Positions 821 to 6,344 are shown, counted from the first letter of the stretch. The stretch: DNA of 64,000 nt from an uncultured Methanosarcinales archaeon (GCA_964455675.1 CAYVYK010000007.1:40166-104165), one strand, 5' to 3'. Notes: generated by a model not told the origin, from the letters alone. A program made the numbers and translations.

Positions 821-1313
821 GAGAGTATACTTATGGGAATCATCACGGATCACGCACTCGCGTTCACACATCTCGCATATGTATTTCTATTAATCATACT
901 CCTCATCTTTGCGCGCAACACGTATCGCACACTAAGGCAGATCAATGAGAGGTTATAACCTTGGGCACAACAGCACTTGCCATCTATCTTACACAAATTC
1001 CGATTGGTATCGGCATATTCATCGGCGCATATTATTTGCATCGATGCAGAAAGGAACTTGTGGAGATACTGCAGAAGCTTGGGAGATTAAAATAGTCCAG
1101 AATACTACCAAGCTATTGCTCACTTAAGTTGCTCAAGAACTGCCGCTTTCGAGGGAAATTTCTTCTGACAGGAACTGCAGACATAACGCTTCTTGTATTG
1201 ATGGTCCTTAATCACAGTTCCCACTACCTTTTTCAGGAATGTCTCAGCAATCTTTTCCCGGCAGATATCGCACTTCATATAAGAATGGAGTAAGTAGGCG
1301 TTTATATCCTTTG

Positions 1314-2111
1314 CTACTTGCCTAGCATTGCAGGGTAATAGCGCTTGACGAAATCAACGCACGCAATGCCTGTGCAATTCATCCTCGTGATCATTCCCTC
1401 GAGAATCTTCCAGGCATTCTCACCAGTGTTTCTCCGAGAGAGATTATCAACAACAAAACCCGCATGATCGGGAACATTATTTCCCAAGAATTCATGAGGA
1501 TGCATGTTGAACACGGCGAGACGACCAACCTTGCCAAATGGGTACATTGGATGGAAGGCACGCATGAACGAAAGGCCGAAGGGGATCTTGAACATTGAGT
1601 AACTGGTGATCGGGATTTCCAAGAAGTAGTTACCTTGTTCCTTAAGCGACGCGACAGAGCAGAGGTATGGCCGGTTTGGAATGTCCCGGTTATTATATCT
1701 GCCAGGGAAGTATGCTCGCGCAAGGCTGGCGTCATAGACATAGCCAGCCTTCTTCAAACCTATCACATCAGCAGGATCAATCATGTTGTAGGGTGCTCGA
1801 AAACCATGCACAGGAATCCTTAGTTCCTCAATAGCCTCCTTTGATGCTACAAGCTCCTTCATGACTTCAGCTTTCGTGAGCCTTGTCATATCACGATGCG
1901 AAAAACTATGCGAGGCCACCTCGTGCTTCCTTGATATCTCAAGCAGTTCATCCTCAAAAGAGTGTACAATGCTTGCCTGAACAAAAAACGTGCAGCGAAT
2001 GTGATGATTGTCAAGGAAATCCAGAATTTTCGGGAGCACCTCTTCAAGAGCTTGCGTATCCTGGGTTTCCCAATCAGGTTCCAAATCGCAGGTAAAAATG
2101 ATCGTTCGCAT
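1314..2111 (-). CDS. polysaccharide deacetylase family protein (CE4-like)
   Basis: 265 aa ORF. Motifs TCDLEPDW and HSFSHRD resemble the NodB/polysaccharide-deacetylase metal site. A TATA-like element lies about 20 nt upstream on the minus strand. Confidence 0.7.
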   Translation of the reverse strand: MRTIIFTCDLEPDWETQDTQALEEVLPKILDFLDNHHIRCTFFVQASIVHSFEDELLEISRKHEVASHSFSHRDMTRLTKAEVMKELVASKEAIEELRIPVHGFRAPYNMIDPADVIGLKKAGYVYDASLARAYFPGRYNNRDIPNRPYLCSVASLKEQGNYFLEIPITSYSMFKIPFGLSFMRAFHPMYPFGKVGRLAVFNMHPHEFLGNNVPDHAGFVVDNLSRRNTGENAWKILEGMITRMNCTGIACVDFVKRYYPAMLGK

Positions 2112-2235
2112 GACACTGCAAAGGAGCGTGTTCTATAAATACTTACTGCTAGAATTTTTCTATCACCCGGTGGTTGCTTTTGGTTGTGATCCTGATGACA
2201 ATTTTTTTAAAGGCGAGGCAAGTCTTCATATATAT

Positions 2236-2310
2236 ACGCCCCTGTAGCATACACAGCAACACACTGCTGGTCGCTACATGTGCTCCGCTTCGCTACGCCC
2301 CTGTAGCATA
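2236..2310 (+). repeat. 16-17 nt direct repeat acgcccctgtagcata (2236-2251 and 2295-2310) flanking an imperfect hairpin (2244-2277)
   Basis: Exact repeat read in the sequence; the second copy forms the 5' end of the tRNA-like element. A TATA-like atatatata sits at 2227-2235. Confidence 0.6.
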
Positions 2311-2369
2311 GTAGCTATTGCGTCTGCCTCGTAAGCAGAAGGTCGAGGGTGCAAGTCTCTCCAGGGGCT
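2297..2369 (+). tRNA. tRNA-Thr(CGU)-like element with degenerate D and T loops (possible pseudo-tRNA or att-site tRNA)
   Basis: 7-bp acceptor GCCCCTG/CAGGGGC, TA at positions 8-9, anticodon arm TCTGC-CTCGTAA-GCAGA (anticodon CGT), variable AGGTC, T arm GAGGG-TGCAAGT-CTCTC. D loop lacks GG and T loop lacks TTC. 73 nt. Confidence 0.35.
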
Positions 2370-2617
2370 TATTTCTTTTTTATCCGCCGCAGGACATATC
2401 TACCAACAAAGAGCACAAGAATACCGAGGCATGAGATCCACAAACCAAAAATGATGGAATCAAGGTAGAGATACCGGCAAATATACGGTGCCGACTTTGC
2501 AGCAAACGGCCCACTGATACCACAGATGACCACTTTCGTACGCAGAAAGTACCATACCGAGGATGCGATCAGCAACACAAAAAAAAGAATCAGCGCAGTC
2601 AATGTGAATCGTTTCAT
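2369..2617 (-). CDS. small two-TM membrane protein, hypothetical
   Basis: 82 aa ATG ORF with two hydrophobic helices. Minus-strand TATA-like ttttatat about 25 nt upstream. Confidence 0.35.
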   Translation of the reverse strand: MKRFTLTALILFFVLLIASSVWYFLRTKVVICGISGPFAAKSAPYICRYLYLDSIIFGLWISCLGILVLFVGRYVLRRIKKK

Positions 2618-3401
2618 GCATTCAAGATTATCACTAGAGGATATAAAATTTGTGCGGTGACTGCGCCTACCTATAACCGCTAATTCACGCTAAAACCACC
2701 CCCGGCGTACACCGAAGAGGATCATAGCACAGCATCTTCCCCTTGTTCTCGCCATCGATGATCTAGCGCGGTCTGAACCGGCAAGTTCACCAAACGCATA
2801 CTCCCACCTCCCATGTAAAAAGTAAGCACACGATTATAATACCCTTATCAACATGGAATCTGTACATCAGATGCATAAGGGTTTTAACGGGTACAACGGG
2901 CAGGCGGAGTACATTACCAATGTGTTCTCTGTGCTTTACGTCGGTGATTTAAGGATAGTATCCGCGCTGATGTGTATCATTTATAAATAAATAAAGAGTT
3001 ATATCTACTAGCAAGTAGTGTATTAATACAAACAAAGGCATCACTAGTGGTGTTCATAATCACCACATTTGATTAAATCGTTTTGAAGACTATCAATACC
3101 ATACTACATAACAACCAGCCACACCACGAATCTTTACGCGTGCTCAACCATTGAGCCAAAAACCTTTGGCGGGTCATGCGCAAGGATCAACCCTTCGCCA
3201 TCATCGCACGGCATCTGTGGACTATCACATGACGATGTGCGGGATGAGAAACACTATGGAGGAGCCGGAATACGGGAACAAACGCGTATTTCGATGGTGA
3301 AACGGACACCATAAGACGTAGCGAAAGCTCTTTCTTGGAAATTTCCCTCGTTGGGAACAAATATTCTCACTATTCGGCGCGGCCGAGAAAGGTAGGATTC
3401 C

Positions 3402-4517
3402 ATGGCACGAAAAGCAGTAGCAGACAGAAGCGATGTACGTGAAGTCGTGTTCTGCTTCGACACGACTGGATCAATGTATCCTTGCATCGCACAGGTGAAG
3501 CGCAAGGTTGAGAGGATGGTTCGCCACCTGATGCAGGAAGTTCCCGGCATCCGAATCGGGTGCATGTGGCACGGCGACTACATCGACATGCCGAACATGT
3601 TCGGTAAGCTCGAGCTCACGACGGACATCGAGAAGATCTGCGCGTTCATCCGGAACGCACCCCAGACGGACGGAGGCGACACGGCCGAATGCTACGAGCG
3701 GATGCTCCATGAGGGCCTCGGTTTTCGGTGGACACCCGGCGCTCGACGAGTGTTCGTCCTGATCGGCGACGATGTCCCACACGAGCCCTCGTATCCGCAG
3801 AACAAGCAACGCCTCAACTGGCGCGATGAGCTCGATCGGTACACGGAAGCAGGCACGCAGGTGTATGGCGTGCAGTGCCTCGGACGGCATCACGCGGATC
3901 CGTTCTACATGGAAATCGCACGGCGCACGGGTGGCGTTCGCATCCAGCTCAGTCAGTTCCACCTCGTGGAAGACCTGATCTTCGCGATCTGCATGAAGCA
4001 GATTGGCGACGATCGCGTGGCGATATTCGAGCAGGACCTCATCCGCGAGGGCAGAATGAGCCGCGCCGCCGAAACGATCTTCGACGGGCTGCTCGGTCGC
4101 ACCGCACGGAAGTCGCGCTGGGGAGAGGCAGGCCTTGAAGCGGTCGACCCTGCGCGGTTCCAAGTGCTCAGTGTTGACAGCGACCAGGCCATCCGCGAAT
4201 TCGTCCAGAACAACGGTCTGCGCTTCAAGACGGGACGCGGATTCTACGAGTGGACGAAGCGGGAGACGGTGCAGGAGAAGAAGGAGGTCGTTCTCGTCGA
4301 CCGCAACACGGGAGACATGTTCACGGGCGGGCACGCGCGCGAGCTGATCGGCCTACCCTACGGCAACCGCGCGGACATCAACCCGAACGATCTTCCGGCC
4401 GAGCTGCGCAATCGGTTCAAGTTCTTCATCCAGAGCACGAGCTACAACCGCAAGCTCAAAGCTGGCACGCAGTTCCTGTACGAGGTCGAGGACTGGGATC
4501 GCGCTGACGCAGCGTAA
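3402..4517 (+). CDS. cytoplasmic von Willebrand factor A (vWA, MIDAS) domain protein with about 170-aa C-terminal domain of unknown function
   Basis: 371 aa. MIDAS-like DTTGS (VVFCFDTTGSM), later TDGGDT and GDDVPH. Very GC-rich (about 65-70%). SD gaaaggtagg upstream. No signal peptide. Confidence 0.75.
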   Translation: MARKAVADRSDVREVVFCFDTTGSMYPCIAQVKRKVERMVRHLMQEVPGIRIGCMWHGDYIDMPNMFGKLELTTDIEKICAFIRNAPQTDGGDTAECYERMLHEGLGFRWTPGARRVFVLIGDDVPHEPSYPQNKQRLNWRDELDRYTEAGTQVYGVQCLGRHHADPFYMEIARRTGGVRIQLSQFHLVEDLIFAICMKQIGDDRVAIFEQDLIREGRMSRAAETIFDGLLGRTARKSRWGEAGLEAVDPARFQVLSVDSDQAIREFVQNNGLRFKTGRGFYEWTKRETVQEKKEVVLVDRNTGDMFTGGHARELIGLPYGNRADINPNDLPAELRNRFKFFIQSTSYNRKLKAGTQFLYEVEDWDRADAA

Positions 4518-4539
4518 ATCTGCGCGGCAATCATCCTTC

Positions 4540-4573
4540 CGAGGAGGCGCAAAGCCATTGCTTTGCGCCTCCT
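4540..4573 (+). promoter_or_regulatory. perfect 14-bp stem hairpin (gaggaggcgcaaag-ccattg-ctttgcgcctcctc) between vWA gene and downstream gene
   Basis: Inverted repeat read directly. No trailing T-run. Abuts the ATG at 4575. Confidence 0.5.
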
Positions 4574-4574
4574 C

Positions 4575-5093
4575 ATGGAGGAATTCATGACAAGAATTAA
4601 GACGTACGTGTTCAACGCTGCCGTCGCAACATGGACAGGCATTCCCCTCGGCGTGCTGCTCGGCATCGCACACATGCACATGAAACTTGTTGACGACGAC
4701 GAGTGGCTGTCGCTAGCTACGTTTGCGACGATTGCGGTTGCGATTCTCTGCACCGTCGTTCTCCACGAGGCAGTGCACAGTATCGTTGCCCGGTCATACG
4801 GACTTCGCGCGAAGTACGGCGTCAAGTACATCTTCGCATACGTCACATTCACCGAGAAGATGCCACGCAATACGTTCCTTGTGATCGCACTTGCGCCACT
4901 CATCATCCTAAGCCCAGGGCTATTCCTCCTCTACTATCTCGACGTGCTCCGCGTGTTCAGCTGGTTCTGCTTCGTCACGAACACGTTCGGAGCGATCGGT
5001 GATATCTGGATGGCAGCGAACGCACTGCGGCACCCACGAAAATGCATAATACAAGACACGGGGGTTGGCTTTGAAATCTGGGAAGGAGAATAA
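4575..5093 (+). CDS. polytopic membrane protein with HExxH motif (putative zincin-like metallopeptidase, DUF3267-like)
   Basis: Longest ORF starts at TTG 4563. In-frame ATGs at 4575 and 4587, with GGAGG before 4587. Motif LHEAVHSIV lies between hydrophobic helices. About 170 aa. Confidence 0.5.
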   Translation: MEEFMTRIKTYVFNAAVATWTGIPLGVLLGIAHMHMKLVDDDEWLSLATFATIAVAILCTVVLHEAVHSIVARSYGLRAKYGVKYIFAYVTFTEKMPRNTFLVIALAPLIILSPGLFLLYYLDVLRVFSWFCFVTNTFGAIGDIWMAANALRHPRKCIIQDTGVGFEIWEGE

Positions 5094-5098
5094 CTGCC

Positions 5099-6166
5099 AT
5101 GCCCAAGATGGAGATCACATCACTCCTTGACGCGTGCATCAGGATGGACGCGTCAGACATCCACATCTCACCCGGGAAAGCACCGTGCCTTCGTCTGCAC
5201 GGCGAGATCACACCCCTCGAAACGATACCTGTCACAGAGGAGATCGCCGTCCAGCTCATGAAGGCGATTACGCCGGAGCGACATCAACAAGAGCTCATGG
5301 AAGAGGGGACAACTGAGTTCGGTTTCGACTATACTGAGGCAGCGCGCAGATTTCGCTGCTCGATTTACAAGACACGTCAGGGAACGTGCATGGTCCTGCG
5401 CCTCGTGCCAAAGGACATCCTCACATGCCAGGAACTTGGGCTTCCGCCCAAGGTTTCTGAGATCGTACTCAGCAAGGCGCGAGGCATCTTCTTTGTCACC
5501 GGACCCACGGGCTCGGGCAAGTCCACGACGCTTGCGGCGCTCATCCACCTAATCAATTCCACGCAAGCGTGCAAGATTGTGACGTTCGAGGATCCGATCG
5601 AATACGTGCACACACACCGCAGGGCGATCATCGAGCAGCGAGAAGTGGGAACACACCTAGTCGGGTACATCGACGGCATCCATAGGGTGCTGCGACAGGA
5701 TCCGAACGTCATCCTTCTCGGAGAACTGCGCAACCTCGATACGATGGAGGCTGCACTGCGCGCTGCCGAGACAGGCCACCTCGTGTTCGCGACGCTGCAT
5801 ACGAGGGGTTGTTCGAGCGCGATCAACAGAGTCATCGATGCGTTCCCAGAGATCCAGCAGAACCAAATCAAGACGCAACTCGCCATGTCGCTCCTTGGCG
5901 TGCTCAGCCAGATCCTCGTCCCCCGAAAAGGGCCAGGACGCGTCGCCGCGTTCGAATTCATGTACACGGACAACGGCATCCGAAGCATGATCATGCAGGA
6001 CAAGCCCGTGCAGATCGACAGCCACATCCGCACGCACACAGGTAAGGGCATGATGCTCATGGATGATCATCTCTTCCGGATGGTTGAGGCGAAAGTCATC
6101 ACGAGGGAAACCGCGATCGAATACGCGCGGAACACTGCCGAAATGGAGGAACGGCTCAGTCGGTAG
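5099..6166 (+). CDS. pilT: PilT/PilU-family type IV pilus retraction-type ATPase
   Basis: 355 aa. Walker A GPTGSGKST, Walker B ILLGEL, His box FATLHT, and C-terminal GIRSMIMQDKPVQIDS resembling the PilT AIRNLIRE motif. SD ggaaggaga 9 nt upstream. GC about 58%. Confidence 0.85.
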   Translation: MPKMEITSLLDACIRMDASDIHISPGKAPCLRLHGEITPLETIPVTEEIAVQLMKAITPERHQQELMEEGTTEFGFDYTEAARRFRCSIYKTRQGTCMVLRLVPKDILTCQELGLPPKVSEIVLSKARGIFFVTGPTGSGKSTTLAALIHLINSTQACKIVTFEDPIEYVHTHRRAIIEQREVGTHLVGYIDGIHRVLRQDPNVILLGELRNLDTMEAALRAAETGHLVFATLHTRGCSSAINRVIDAFPEIQQNQIKTQLAMSLLGVLSQILVPRKGPGRVAAFEFMYTDNGIRSMIMQDKPVQIDSHIRTHTGKGMMLMDDHLFRMVEAKVITRETAIEYARNTAEMEERLSR

Positions 6167-6201
6167 CGCGTGTGTGCACGTCTGGACAGCACGTTCTCCA
6201 G

Positions 6202-6232
6202 GGTACGACGACTGTTGTCGTACCCTTTTTTT
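6202..6232 (+). terminator. intrinsic-type terminator hairpin (ggtacgacgactgttgtcgtacc) followed by a T7 run
   Basis: Read directly, 36 nt after the pilT stop. Confidence 0.6.
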
Positions 6233-6344
6233 ATCTTATATCATTACCATATAGTAAATATATTTGAGAAAATACCAATGACTTAAGGTGACGCATAAAG
6301 ATAAAAAAAAATCAGAAAATCAAGAGTGAAGCAGTAGAAAAGGA

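What the first reader, a model, noticed from the sequence alone, without database searches (positions are those of the whole stretch)
2227..2369. tRNA-Thr(CGU)-like element with degenerate D/T loops, preceded by a 16-nt direct repeat of its own 5' end
2297-2369 folds as a cloverleaf with a perfect acceptor stem and an anticodon arm identical to archaeal tRNA-Thr(CGU). However, it lacks the D-loop GG and T-loop TTC that normally interact. Its first 14 nt are exactly duplicated 59 nt upstream (2236-2251), with an imperfect hairpin (2244-2277) between and a TATA-like element at 2227-2235. This pattern could be an integration scar (att duplication), a pseudo-tRNA, or a processed leader. It sits at the edge of the GC-rich cassette.
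Basis: seen in the sequence. Interest (0 to 1): 0.55.

Follow-up and report, generated by a model that had tools for sequence, protein, structure and literature searches.

The report
Working tRNA-Thr with decoy leader hairpin
This is a normal, working threonine tRNA gene of a tiny DPANN archaeon whose "odd" loops are a conserved paired substitution typical of threonine tRNAs in that group, and it is preceded by a short hairpin cassette built from a copy of the tRNA's own first 14 bases, a layout that recurs in related genomes.

Summary
ARAGORN and Rfam (61.6 bits, threshold 29) call a tRNA-Thr(CGU) at 2297-2369. A 17-nt exact repeat (2235-2251 = 2294-2310) lies 59 nt upstream.

The "degenerate" loops are not decay. 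They are a coupled G18->A plus U55->G change, with G19:C56 kept. All 49 archaeal (DPANN) tRNA-Thr genes with G55 that I recovered have A18. Three related tRNA-Thr genes with U55 have G18. Mixed states: none. About a dozen non-Thr tRNAs in the same loci are canonical.

The upstream repeat is not an att site of the GC-rich cassette. No integrase and no second tRNA fragment is in the window.

The repeat belongs to a 46-nt palindromic unit: tRNA nt 1-14, a variable inner hairpin, then an invariant GGTCGCTAC that folds back on the copy. Homologous units precede tRNA-Thr genes in two other DPANN contigs, one as a 2.6-copy tandem array. The closest relatives lack it.

The best-placed TATA box sits 26 nt before the upstream copy. 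So the unit is most likely co-transcribed as a self-sequestering 5' leader and trimmed off.

How the unit arose and how it is processed are inferred, not shown.

The parts
2202..2211 (+). TATA-box-like element TTTTTTTAAA, the likely promoter. It ends 26 nt before G1 of the upstream copy.
   Evidence: It matches TTTAWAWA at 7 of 8 positions, 26 nt from copy 1. Strong TATA matches in sister loci end mostly 23-25 nt (range 23-35) before their tRNA +1. The TTTAAAGGCRAGG context is shared with the tRNA-Thr promoter of L034. No TATA-like 8-mer (best 4/8) occurs in the 50 nt printed before copy 2.
2228..2236 (+). It could be an alternative TATA box, but it abuts copy 1.
   Evidence: TATATATA scores 7/8 but ends 1 nt before copy 1. 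If it were used, transcription would start near 2260, inside the hairpin loop. This is not resolved.
2235..2251 (+). Direct repeat copy 1: leader nt -3..-1 (TAC) plus a decoy copy of tRNA nt 1-14.
   Evidence: 17/17 identical to 2294-2310. 0 of 100 shuffles reached the observed count.
2238..2283 (+). Palindromic leader unit. The decoy 5' strand folds back on a degenerate inverted copy of itself.
   Evidence: Inverted repeat 2238-2248 / 2273-2283, 82% complementary. MFE -16.2 kcal/mol, z = -1.7. Homologous units in L047 and L017 adopt the same topology with z = -5.2, -4.4 and -3.1.
2254..2269 (+). Variable inner hairpin, CAGCA-ACACAC-TGCTG.
   Evidence: Folds. The stem sequence differs in every unit but always forms Watson-Crick pairs: CGAAAG/CTTTCG, CAAAAACC/GGTTTTTG, CAAGAATC/GATTCTTG.
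2269..2277 (+). Invariant motif GGTCGCTAC. Its GCUAC pairs with G7-C11 (GUAGC) of the decoy copy.
   Evidence: The motif is present as GGTCGCTAC/G in all 5 units of the 3 genomes, and otherwise only once by chance in 413 kb of fetched sequence.
2284..2293 (+). Spacer between the palindromic unit and repeat copy 2.
   Evidence: Sequence. It is not conserved between genomes. It contains no T-run that would stop archaeal transcription.
2294..2310 (+). Direct repeat copy 2: the true leader nt -3..-1 plus tRNA nt 1-14.
2297..2369 (+). tRNA-Thr(CGU) gene, 73 nt. The anticodon is at 2330-2332, the discriminator is U73, and no CCA is encoded.
   Evidence: ARAGORN. Rfam 61.6 bits, model positions 1-71 of 71.
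2313..2314 (+). A18-G19 of the D-loop. G18 is replaced by A; G19 is kept.
   Evidence: Rfam alignment. Relatives differ only here and at position 55, e.g. L060 AGUGGCUA / UUCAACU versus L018 and L027 AGUAGCUA / UGCAAUU.
2351..2351 (+). G55 of the T-loop. U/Psi55 is replaced by G; U54, C56 and A58 are kept.
2372..2381 (+). Oligo-T tract TTTCTTTTTT directly after the tRNA, the likely terminator.
   Evidence: Sequence. Terminator-like site 2353-2370 plus T tail.

Best explanation
The locus is a functional tRNA-Thr(CGU) gene of a Woesearchaeales-type DPANN (Nanobdellota) archaeon.

(1) The non-standard loops are a lineage-typical, threonine-specific variant of the tRNA elbow. The tertiary contact G18-Psi55 is replaced by A18-G55, while G19:C56 and U54-A58 are retained. 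The L-shape is therefore presumably kept (inferred).

(2) The upstream repeat is part of a 59-bp cassette lying between the promoter and the tRNA. The cassette holds a copy of leader nt -3..-1 plus tRNA nt 1-14, a variable inner hairpin, and an inverted, partly decayed copy of the same tRNA 5' sequence (GGTCGCTAC + ATGTGC).

It most likely arose by local inverted-plus-direct duplication, through template switching or slippage at the tRNA 5' end (inferred). Such events are common at tRNA-Thr genes in this clade.

The best-placed TATA box lies ~26 nt before the upstream copy. The cassette is therefore most likely transcribed as a 5' leader. During transcription it would fold first into a self-contained hairpin that locks away the decoy 5' strand, so the real acceptor stem can form. 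It would then be removed with the leader by 5' processing of the RNase P type (inferred).
For: tRNA reality. Its score lies in the range of canonical neighbour tRNAs (59-69 bits).

Elbow variant:
- A genome-wide scan for the G55 form found 45 loci, almost all annotated as Woesearchaeota, Nanoarchaeia or other DPANN.
- Every archaeal one has A18-G19.
- A sample made without regard to the T-loop, through the adjacent 51-aa Zn-ribbon gene, gave A18/G55 in L017, L024, L050, L052, L053 and L057, and G18/U55 in L054, L055 and L060. None was mixed.
- Thr(GGU) in L002 and Thr(UGU) in L047 share the variant.
- Cys, Arg, Ala, Phe, Gly and Val tRNAs in the same loci are GG/TTC.

Cassette:
- 17-nt exact repeat and 11-nt inverted repeat.
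- The same architecture occurs in L017 (period 76, 2.6 copies, TRF) and L047 (period 49, before a Thr(UGU) gene), with the invariant GGTCGCTAC.
- The hairpins are significantly stable in L047 and L017.
- Two compensatory stem changes separate L017 units 2 and 3.
- In each genome the upstream copy matches that genome's own acceptor sequence, GCCCCUG versus GCCUCCG.

Promoter: TATA boxes lie 26-27 nt before copy 1 in the window and in L047, and there is none before copy 2. There is an oligo-T tract after the tRNA and no T-run inside the window's cassette.

Local duplication rather than integration:
- L024, the closest relative of L017, has an empty site. Its native upstream sequence aligns without gaps (21/32) with the 3' half of the L017 unit.
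- L022 is a clean 98-bp tandem duplication of promoter plus tRNA nt 1-29.
- 13 tRNA genes (12 of them tRNA-Thr) among the 61 examined carry a partial copy of one end within 250 nt.
Against: There is no transcript data. The start site, whether copy 1 is transcribed, and how the leader is removed are all inferred.

The AT run at 2228-2236 could be the real TATA box. Transcription would then start inside the hairpin and copy 1 would not be transcribed.

No RNase P component was looked for or seen in the window. The related Nanoarchaeum equitans lacks RNase P (PMC10100707).

Thermodynamically, the fold that uses copy 1 as acceptor strand is as good as the one using copy 2: -47.0 vs -45.0 kcal/mol in the window, -58.0 vs -59.6 in L047, -56.6 vs -55.7 in L017.

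The window's hairpin alone is only marginally more stable than shuffles (z = -1.7).

Compensatory changes in a DNA palindrome can also arise by template-switch correction without selection on RNA.

The window's native promoter resembles that of L034, yet its cassette resembles that of L017. This is easier to explain by transfer than by purely local origin.

The Thr-specificity of A18/G55 rests on only about a dozen non-Thr tRNAs.
Confidence: 0.55

Rival explanations
1. The cassette is a footprint of, or itself is, a mobile element that targets the 5' end of tRNA-Thr genes. It would be either a site-specific-recombination (att) scar, or a miniature non-autonomous cassette that brings a replacement copy of tRNA nt 1-14 and so leaves the gene intact. 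It would spread between genomes and between isoacceptor genes.
For: - Patchy distribution, with empty sites in the closest relatives: L024 versus L017; L019, L022 and L029 versus the window.
- Homologous cassettes sit before different isoacceptors, CGU and UGU, and in genomes with different acceptor stems. The flanking repeat always matches the host tRNA.
- The left edge of the repeat lies within 0-6 nt of the tRNA start in all cases.
- The window's promoter resembles L034, while its cassette resembles L017 and L047.
- Partial copies of 3' ends flanking hairpin-bearing inserts are also common. L027 and L053 share a homologous insert.
Against: - No integrase or transposase was found near the tRNA in the window, L017 or L047.
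- No other copy of the cassette is in the 64-kb window or in 413 kb of related loci.
- There are no hits in viral contigs, phage records or plasmid records.
- Units of 49-76 bp are too small to be recombining DNA circles.
- Repeat lengths vary (14, 16-19, 17 nt), unlike a fixed target-site duplication.
- The 3' half of the L017 unit is homologous to the native upstream sequence of L024, and L017 is a true tandem array.
Confidence: 0.2
2. The promoter-proximal copy is the true 5' end of the tRNA. The 59 nt up to the second copy would be an intron-like insert in the D-loop, removed by a non-canonical pathway or retained. This would fit a lineage with leaderless tRNAs and no RNase P.
For: - The TATA box is at leaderless-type distance from copy 1 in the window and L047.
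- The MFE fold of the window and L017 precursors uses copy 1 as acceptor strand.
- Sister genomes are rich in non-canonical introns in this very tRNA, including in the D-loop (L015, L032, L042).
- N. equitans lacks RNase P (PMC10100707).
Against: - A splice junction anywhere inside the repeat would need a self-complementary 4-mer for the central BHB helix, and none exists.
- An explicit BHB search found no motif giving a correct tRNA in the window, L047 or L017. It did recover the true D-loop intron of L042 as a positive control.
- In many sister loci the tRNA starts 1-13 nt after a stop codon with no TATA box. This suggests co-transcription and therefore a 5'-processing activity in this clade.
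- L017 units contain T5 runs.
Confidence: 0.08
3. The cassette is a selectively neutral relic of a duplication. It is not transcribed with the tRNA, or is irrelevant to it, and has no role in folding. The identity of the two copies would simply reflect a recent event.
For: - Partial end-duplications of many shapes occur at 13 of the 61 tRNA genes examined (12 of them tRNA-Thr).
- In L033, L036 and L043 the upstream fragments lie before the TATA box and have diverged from the tRNA.
- The window's hairpin has a weak z-score.
Against: - In L017, units that differ by about 20-30% elsewhere keep tRNA nt 1-13 and GGTCGCTA unchanged, and both stem changes are compensated.
- The same GGTCGCTAC and the same hairpin topology persist in three genomes whose inner hairpin sequences are unrelated.
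- Apart from the AT run that abuts copy 1, the only TATA-like element stands before copy 1 in the window and L047.
Confidence: 0.12
4. The tRNA is a degenerate pseudogene, or the repeat is an assembly artefact.
For: It lacks the near-universal G18 and U55.
Against: - 61.6 bits, with all four stems intact.
- The same two substitutions are conserved and covary in about 49 archaeal tRNA-Thr genes.
- An independent assembly is identical.
- The same arrangement occurs in two unrelated datasets.
Confidence: 0.02

Closest known systems
Canonical archaeal elongator tRNA-Thr (Rfam RF00005)
   Same: Cloverleaf with a 7-bp acceptor stem, 4-bp D-stem, 5-bp anticodon and T stems, CUCGUAA anticodon loop, 5-nt variable loop and U73 discriminator. 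G19:C56 and U54-A58 are kept. It scores like its neighbours.
   Different: G18 is A and U55 is G. In my sample this change is coupled and isotype-specific. I found no description of an A18/G55 pair in the searchable literature.
tRNAs that naturally lack G18/G19 and T-Psi-C (tRNAPyl, many mitochondrial tRNAs; review PMC7609411)
   Same: They depart from the conserved D-loop/T-loop contact.
   Different: Those tRNAs lose the whole motif and often have shortened loops or altered stems. Here only the 18-55 contact is exchanged, inside an otherwise standard tRNA, and G19:C56 is kept.
Partial tRNA duplications at att sites of integrated elements (genomic islands; archaeal SSV-type and pNOB8-type integration; from general knowledge)
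   Same: A direct repeat of a tRNA gene segment flanks inserted DNA, and the gene stays intact.
   Different: The insert is 42 bp, not kilobases. There is no integrase. The 5' end rather than the usual 3' end is duplicated. The insert is itself built from an inverted copy of the tRNA 5' end.
Archaeal non-canonical BHB introns and split or leaderless tRNAs of Nanoarchaeota
   Same: Same clade. Sister tRNA-Thr genes carry BHB introns in the D-loop and anticodon stem. The promoter distance resembles that of leaderless tRNA genes (PMC10100707).
   Different: No BHB motif can remove the unit. There are no separate half-genes and no complementary leader/trailer pair as in split tRNAs.
Tandem and quasi-palindromic duplications from slippage or template switching (from general knowledge)
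   Same: Short direct repeats flank a unit that contains an inverted copy of adjacent sequence. L017 holds a tandem array and L022 a clean tandem duplication.
   Different: The unit is conserved in form across three genomes, with an invariant motif and compensated stems. That suggests maintenance beyond a one-off replication error.

Membership tests
tRNA (RF00005), functional elongator | Covariance-model score above the gathering threshold, over the full length | tested here: met
   61.6 bits versus 29, model positions 1-71 of 71. ARAGORN also calls it.
tRNA (RF00005), functional elongator | Intact acceptor, D, anticodon and T stems, and a 7-nt anticodon loop with U33 | tested here: met
   Rfam alignment and MFE fold. 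The only non-pair is U13-U22. It covaries to C-G or U-G in relatives.
tRNA (RF00005), functional elongator | Canonical elbow contacts G18-Psi55 and G19-C56 | tested here: not met
   G19 and C56 are present. Position 18 is A and position 55 is G. The pair covaries with the canonical state across relatives, so the contact is probably replaced rather than lost (inferred).
tRNA (RF00005), functional elongator | Own promoter and terminator | tested here: inconclusive
   A TATA-like box lies at 2202-2211 and an oligo-T tract at 2372-2381. These are consensus matches only; there are no transcript data.
tRNA pseudogene | Low model score, broken stems, lineage-private substitutions | tested here: not met
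   The score equals that of neighbouring tRNAs. The substitutions are shared by about 49 genes.
Integrase att duplication / tRNA-linked genomic island | A tyrosine or serine recombinase gene inside the flanked segment | tested here: not met
   No recombinase domain was found in the ORFs tested across 1-24 kb, nor next to the L017 or L047 units.
Integrase att duplication / tRNA-linked genomic island | A second copy of the tRNA segment at the far end of a kb-scale insert | tested here: not met
   The only repeat partner is 59 nt away. No other match of 11 nt or more to 2200-2400 occurs beyond chance, and there is no 3'-end copy with up to 3 mismatches.
Archaeal BHB tRNA intron | Two 3-nt bulges separated by a 4-bp helix, placed so that excision gives a correct tRNA | tested here: not met
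   The BHB search was negative for the window, L047 and L017, and positive for the control L042. The repeat contains no self-complementary 4-mer.
Split or permuted tRNA gene | Separate 5' and 3' pieces, with complementary flanks that form a BHB motif | tested here: not met
   A complete, contiguous tRNA is present. The upstream copy adds nothing that the gene lacks.
MITE-like miniature transposable element | Terminal inverted repeats, a fixed-length target-site duplication, and many copies per genome | tested here: inconclusive
   The unit is palindromic, but the flanking repeat length varies (14-19 nt). No second copy is in 64 kb, and none occurs outside tRNA-Thr leaders in 413 kb. The whole genome is not available.
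Known structured RNA families (Rfam 15) | The leader unit matches a curated family | tested here: not met
   Only the tRNA passes. Nothing credible appears in 2100-2500 at E up to 10.

The most novel reading that the evidence does not exclude
The cassette would be a member of an undescribed class of miniature, tRNA-derived palindromic elements in DPANN archaea. These would specifically invade the ends of tRNA-Thr genes and 'heal' the target by carrying a replacement copy of the displaced tRNA end. At the RNA level they would act as self-sequestering leaders or trailers. The A18-G55 elbow would be a threonine-specific recognition feature, for the DPANN ThrRS, for a modification or processing enzyme, or against a nuclease. 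That feature would make tRNA-Thr genes the shared target.
Probability: 0.15. Interest if true: 0.75.

Novelty: new variant of a known kind. Interest (0 to 1): 0.5.

Why it matters
G18-Psi55 is one of the most conserved tertiary contacts in cytosolic tRNAs. Here it is exchanged for A18-G55 in one amino-acid family across a large archaeal clade, with clean covariation and apparent switches between states.

This is a natural experiment on how the tRNA elbow can be rebuilt. It predicts that these tRNAs lack Psi55 and any modification of G18 (such as Gm18). It also hints at an isotype-specific recognition role.

The recurrent palindromic leader, built from the tRNA's own 5' end, shows how a small-genome archaeon tolerates insertions inside a tRNA transcription unit. 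It gives a testable case of a decoy strand neutralised by its own hairpin.

There is a practical lesson for annotators. These genes are genuine tRNAs rather than pseudogenes, and ARAGORN mis-assigns the isotype of the intron-containing ones.

Tried and rejected
- **BHB intron.** An explicit search found no motif that removes the unit correctly, while the L042 control was recovered. A relaxed search on L030, L033 and L043 gave only noise, apart from re-finding the known anticodon-stem introns of L033 and L043.
- **Insert as a decayed copy of the rest of the tRNA.** Local alignments were no better than shuffles.
- **A second tRNA-like fold upstream.** Rfam found nothing at E up to 10.
- **att partner or island boundary.** There is no further copy of either tRNA end in the window and no integrase.
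- **Orthologous locus through the neighbouring deacetylase gene.** The 70%-identical homologue (L048) and a 32% homologue (L049) have no tRNA nearby, so no empty-site comparison exists for the window's own lineage.
- **Viral, phage and plasmid collections.** No related tRNA or cassette was found.
- **Literature.** No description of A18/G55 or of these leader units was found.
- **Organism name through the protein cluster.** No name is recorded. Taxonomy is inferred from the titles of related loci and from archaeal marker genes.
- **Thermodynamics.** It does not decide which copy forms the acceptor stem.

Full report
**What is in the sequence**

ARAGORN finds one tRNA in the 64-kb window, tRNA-Thr(CGU) at 2297-2369 on the + strand. 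Rfam's tRNA model matches the same coordinates over its full length with 61.6 bits, against a gathering score of 29.

The acceptor, anticodon and T stems are perfect. The D-stem has one U-U opposition.

The D-loop is AGUAGCUA and the T-loop UGCAAGU.

The direct repeat is real and one base longer on the left than reported: TACGCCCCTGTAGCATA at 2235-2251 and 2294-2310, spacing 59. No shuffle of the window reached the observed number of matches.

A Logan assembly of run SRR12133403 is identical over 1150-3280. The window is archaeal: it encodes CDC48, GatE/GatD and a FlaI-like ATPase.

**The loops are a conserved, covarying variant**

I scanned one genome per species for the anticodon loop plus a G55 T-loop. 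This returned 45 loci. All but one bacterial hit are MAGs annotated as Woesearchaeota, Nanoarchaeia or Nanobdellota (most of them), or as Micrarchaeota, Aenigmatarchaeota, an unclassified archaeon, or 'uncultured Methanosarcinales' (most likely a mislabel).

In every archaeal hit the D-loop reads ...A-G-Y... instead of ...G-G-Y.... D-loops of other lengths all place an A immediately 5' of the single G: AGUUAGCA, AGCUAGUA, AGCUUAGUA, AGUCAGUA. The simplest numbering is therefore A18-G19. G19 can still pair with C56, and only the 18-55 contact is changed.

That scan was selected for G55, so I also sampled without regard to the T-loop. I used the 51-aa Zn-ribbon gene that precedes tRNA-Thr(CGU) in many of these genomes.

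- A18/G55: L017, L024, L050, L052, L053, L057.
- G18/U55: L054, L055, L060.
- Mixed: none.

L060 (GCACAGUGGCUAGUGC ... GGGUUCAACUCCC) and L018/L027 (GCACAGUAGCUAGUGC ... GAGUGCAAUUCUC) have identical D-arms except at position 18. This suggests more than one switch (inference).

Thr(GGU) in L002 and Thr(UGU) in L047 carry the variant. The Cys, Arg, Ala, Phe, Gly and Val tRNAs found in the same loci are canonical.

A18/G55 tRNA-Thr genes score 63-66 bits, against 59-69 for their canonical neighbours. I therefore read the 'degenerate loops' as a threonine-specific elbow variant of this clade.

That A18 contacts G55 in place of G18-Psi55 is an inference from covariation. I found no paper describing it. 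Known tRNAs lacking these motifs, such as tRNAPyl and mitochondrial tRNAs, lose the whole motif.

**Anatomy of the upstream element**

The upstream copy is followed by an inner hairpin, CAGCA-ACACAC-TGCTG. Then comes GGTCGCTAC, whose GCUAC pairs with G7-C11 of the copy. Then comes ATGTGC, a decayed complement of nt 1-6.

Together 2238-2283 is an 11-nt inverted repeat (82% complementary) around a small stem-loop. It is a palindromic unit made from the tRNA's own 5' end. A 10-nt spacer and the second repeat copy follow.

The insert is not a decayed copy of the rest of the tRNA and matches no Rfam family.

**The architecture recurs**

L017 (Nanoarchaeia MAG, JBMCCQ010000010) has 2.6 tandem units of 76 nt ending in the tRNA (TRF, 80% matches). 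A metagenome scan for GGTCGCTA upstream of this D-arm found one more case, L047. There a 49-nt unit precedes an intron-containing tRNA-Thr(UGU).

All five units share several features.

- They begin with tRNA nt 1-13 or 1-14, and these always match that genome's own acceptor sequence.
- They keep the internal-loop bases AUAC / GUC.
- They carry the invariant GGTCGCTAC/G.
- They adopt the same predicted topology.

The inner stems differ in sequence but are always Watson-Crick paired. Units 2 and 3 of L017 differ by two fully compensated pairs. GGTCGCTAC/G occurs only in these leaders, plus one chance hit, in 413 kb.

Hairpin stability is significant in L047 and L017 (z = -5.2, -4.4, -3.1) but weak in the window (z = -1.7).

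**Where transcription probably starts**

In sister loci with strong TATA matches, the box ends mostly 23-25 nt (range 23-35) before tRNA +1. In the window TTTTTAAA ends 26 nt before G1 of copy 1. In L047 TTTATAAA ends 27 nt before copy 1. Neither has anything TATA-like in the 50 nt printed before copy 2.

The window's promoter context (TTTAAAGGCGAGG) resembles that of the unit-less tRNA-Thr gene in L034. The window's unit has no T-run, and an oligo-T tract follows the tRNA.

So the unit is most likely transcribed as a leader.

One caveat: the AT run at 2228-2236 also scores 7/8. If it were used, transcription would start near 2260.

**Is it an intron?**

Sister genes have genuine BHB introns in the D-loop and anticodon stem. 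Removing this unit, however, would need a splice junction inside the repeat. That requires a self-complementary 4-mer for the central helix, and there is none.

A BHB search found no solution giving a correct tRNA in the window, L047 or L017. It did recover the L042 control.

Many sister tRNAs start 1-13 nt after a stop codon with no TATA box. This suggests co-transcription and hence a 5'-processing activity in the clade (inference). No RNase P component was examined here.

**Is it an att scar?**

- No integrase was found in the ORFs tested.
- No other copy of either tRNA end is in the window.
- Nothing matched in viral, phage or plasmid collections.
- The repeat partners are 59 nt apart, so they cannot delimit 2236-6235.

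The GC-rich cassette (53-59% GC) does look foreign. Its ATPase is about 50% identical to PilT of Planctomycetota. It lies downstream of the tRNA and nothing links it to the repeat.

**Origin**

L024 is the closest relative of L017 (Zn-ribbon protein 82% identical) and has no unit. Its native upstream sequence aligns without gaps (21/32) with the 3' half of the L017 unit.

A survey of the 61 tRNAs in all fetched loci found partial copies of a tRNA end within 250 nt at 13 of them.

- Twelve are tRNA-Thr genes and one is a tRNA-Val.
- Seven carry 5' copies and six carry 3' copies; L017 has both.
- L022 is a clean 98-bp tandem duplication.
- L003 has a 38-nt repeat flanking a 45-nt palindrome.

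Local duplication at tRNA-Thr ends, both direct and inverted, is therefore common in this clade. I take it as the most likely origin (inferred).

Some observations are easier to explain by transfer or mobility. The cassette family has a patchy distribution. It occurs before two different isoacceptor genes. The window's promoter resembles L034 while its cassette resembles L017. I keep mobility as the main rival.

**How it most likely works**

The steps below are inferred, not shown.

1. Transcription starts a few nucleotides before copy 1.
2. The 5' palindrome folds first and sequesters the decoy strand.
3. The real 5' strand pairs with the 3' acceptor strand.
4. The leader is cleaved at 2296/2297.

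The two alternative acceptor pairings are within 2 kcal/mol of each other in all three precursors. Any preference must therefore be kinetic. This is the weakest link, and 5'-end mapping would settle it.

**Verdict**

The finding is real, but it is neither a degenerate tRNA nor an island boundary. It is a lineage-typical tRNA-Thr with a coupled G18A/U55G elbow variant, preceded by one member of a small family of tRNA-derived palindromic leader units.

Both features appear undescribed in the literature I could search. Both are variants of known kinds. Their functional meaning is untested.

Noticed in passing
window 3402-6166: A GC-rich cassette (53-59% GC against about 47% in the flanks) encodes a VWA-domain protein, a DUF3267 putative zincin peptidase, and a bacterial-type PilT ATPase. 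The closest relatives of the ATPase (about 50% identity) are annotated as PilT of Phycisphaerae/Planctomycetota. This looks like a bacterial acquisition in a DPANN genome, or a mis-join. The independent assembly L001 stops at 3280, so it does not verify the junction.
   Followed up: partly
window 2620-3400: About 780 bp has no ORF of 60 aa or more and no Rfam hit. The stretch is AT-rich in part and holds a perfect 6-bp hairpin at 3047-3066. It separates the tRNA from the GC-rich cassette.
   Followed up: no
L003, L017, L022, L027, L030, L033, L043, L047, L053, L054, L055 (positions): Partial copies of a tRNA end lie 49-217 nt from the gene at 12 tRNA-Thr genes and one tRNA-Val. The DNA between the copies usually contains hairpins. 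L022 is a clean 98-bp tandem duplication of promoter plus tRNA nt 1-29. L003 has a 38-nt repeat around a 45-nt palindrome.
   Followed up: partly
L027 and L053, about 20-90 nt downstream of tRNA-Thr: The inserts between the tRNA and its 3'-end copy are homologous. They share a hairpin with a compensatory change (CCATCGAACGTAGTGAGATGG versus CTATCGAGCGTAGTGAGATAG). A related motif, TTGAGCGAA...GTGA, recurs in the 3' inserts of L017, L043 and L055. This may be a second family of tRNA-linked small elements.
   Followed up: no
L002, L015, L025, L032-L034, L036, L040, L042, L043, L045, L052, L053, L057, L060: tRNA-Thr(CGU) genes of this clade often carry introns at canonical and non-canonical positions (D-loop, anticodon stem). 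ARAGORN then mis-assigns the isotype, calling them Ser, Leu, Val or Lys. The D-loop intron of L042 uses the AGCU palindrome of the variant D-loop as the central BHB helix.
   Followed up: partly
L033, L036, L043, about 50-65 nt upstream of tRNA-Thr: A diverged tRNA 5' fragment (GCCYC..TAGCTCAG) plus a conserved AAACTAAG lies upstream of the TATA box of the full gene. In L033 it overlaps the 3' end of an upstream ORF. In L036 the 3' acceptor strand of the full tRNA does not match its 5' strand.
   Followed up: no
L038 (Candidatus Endomicrobiellum, bacterium) 4154-4226: A bacterial tRNA-Thr(CGU) also has G55 (GGTGCAAATCC) but keeps GG in its D-loop. It is the only G18/G55 combination seen.
   Followed up: no
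L053 tRNA T-loop: The T-loop reads UGCAGUU, so position 58 is G instead of the conserved A, in addition to G55.
   Followed up: no
L004, L011, L022, L029, L031, L036, L037, L040 (record titles): TPA MAGs titled 'uncultured Methanosarcinales archaeon' carry the DPANN-type tRNA-Thr, and several also carry the Zn-ribbon gene typical of Woesearchaeales. The taxonomic label is probably wrong.
   Followed up: no
L017 6336-6488 and homologues P0004-P0015: A conserved 50-52-aa Zn-ribbon ORF (MKCEICGKK...CxxCQ...) with no Pfam family sits immediately upstream of tRNA-Thr(CGU) in many Woesearchaeales. Its stop codon is often only 1-13 nt before the tRNA, which suggests co-transcription.
   Followed up: partly
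window 2218-2225 and 2351-2358: The 8-nt sequence GCAAGTCT occurs both in the promoter-proximal region and in the T-loop/T-stem of the tRNA. This is probably chance.
   Followed up: no
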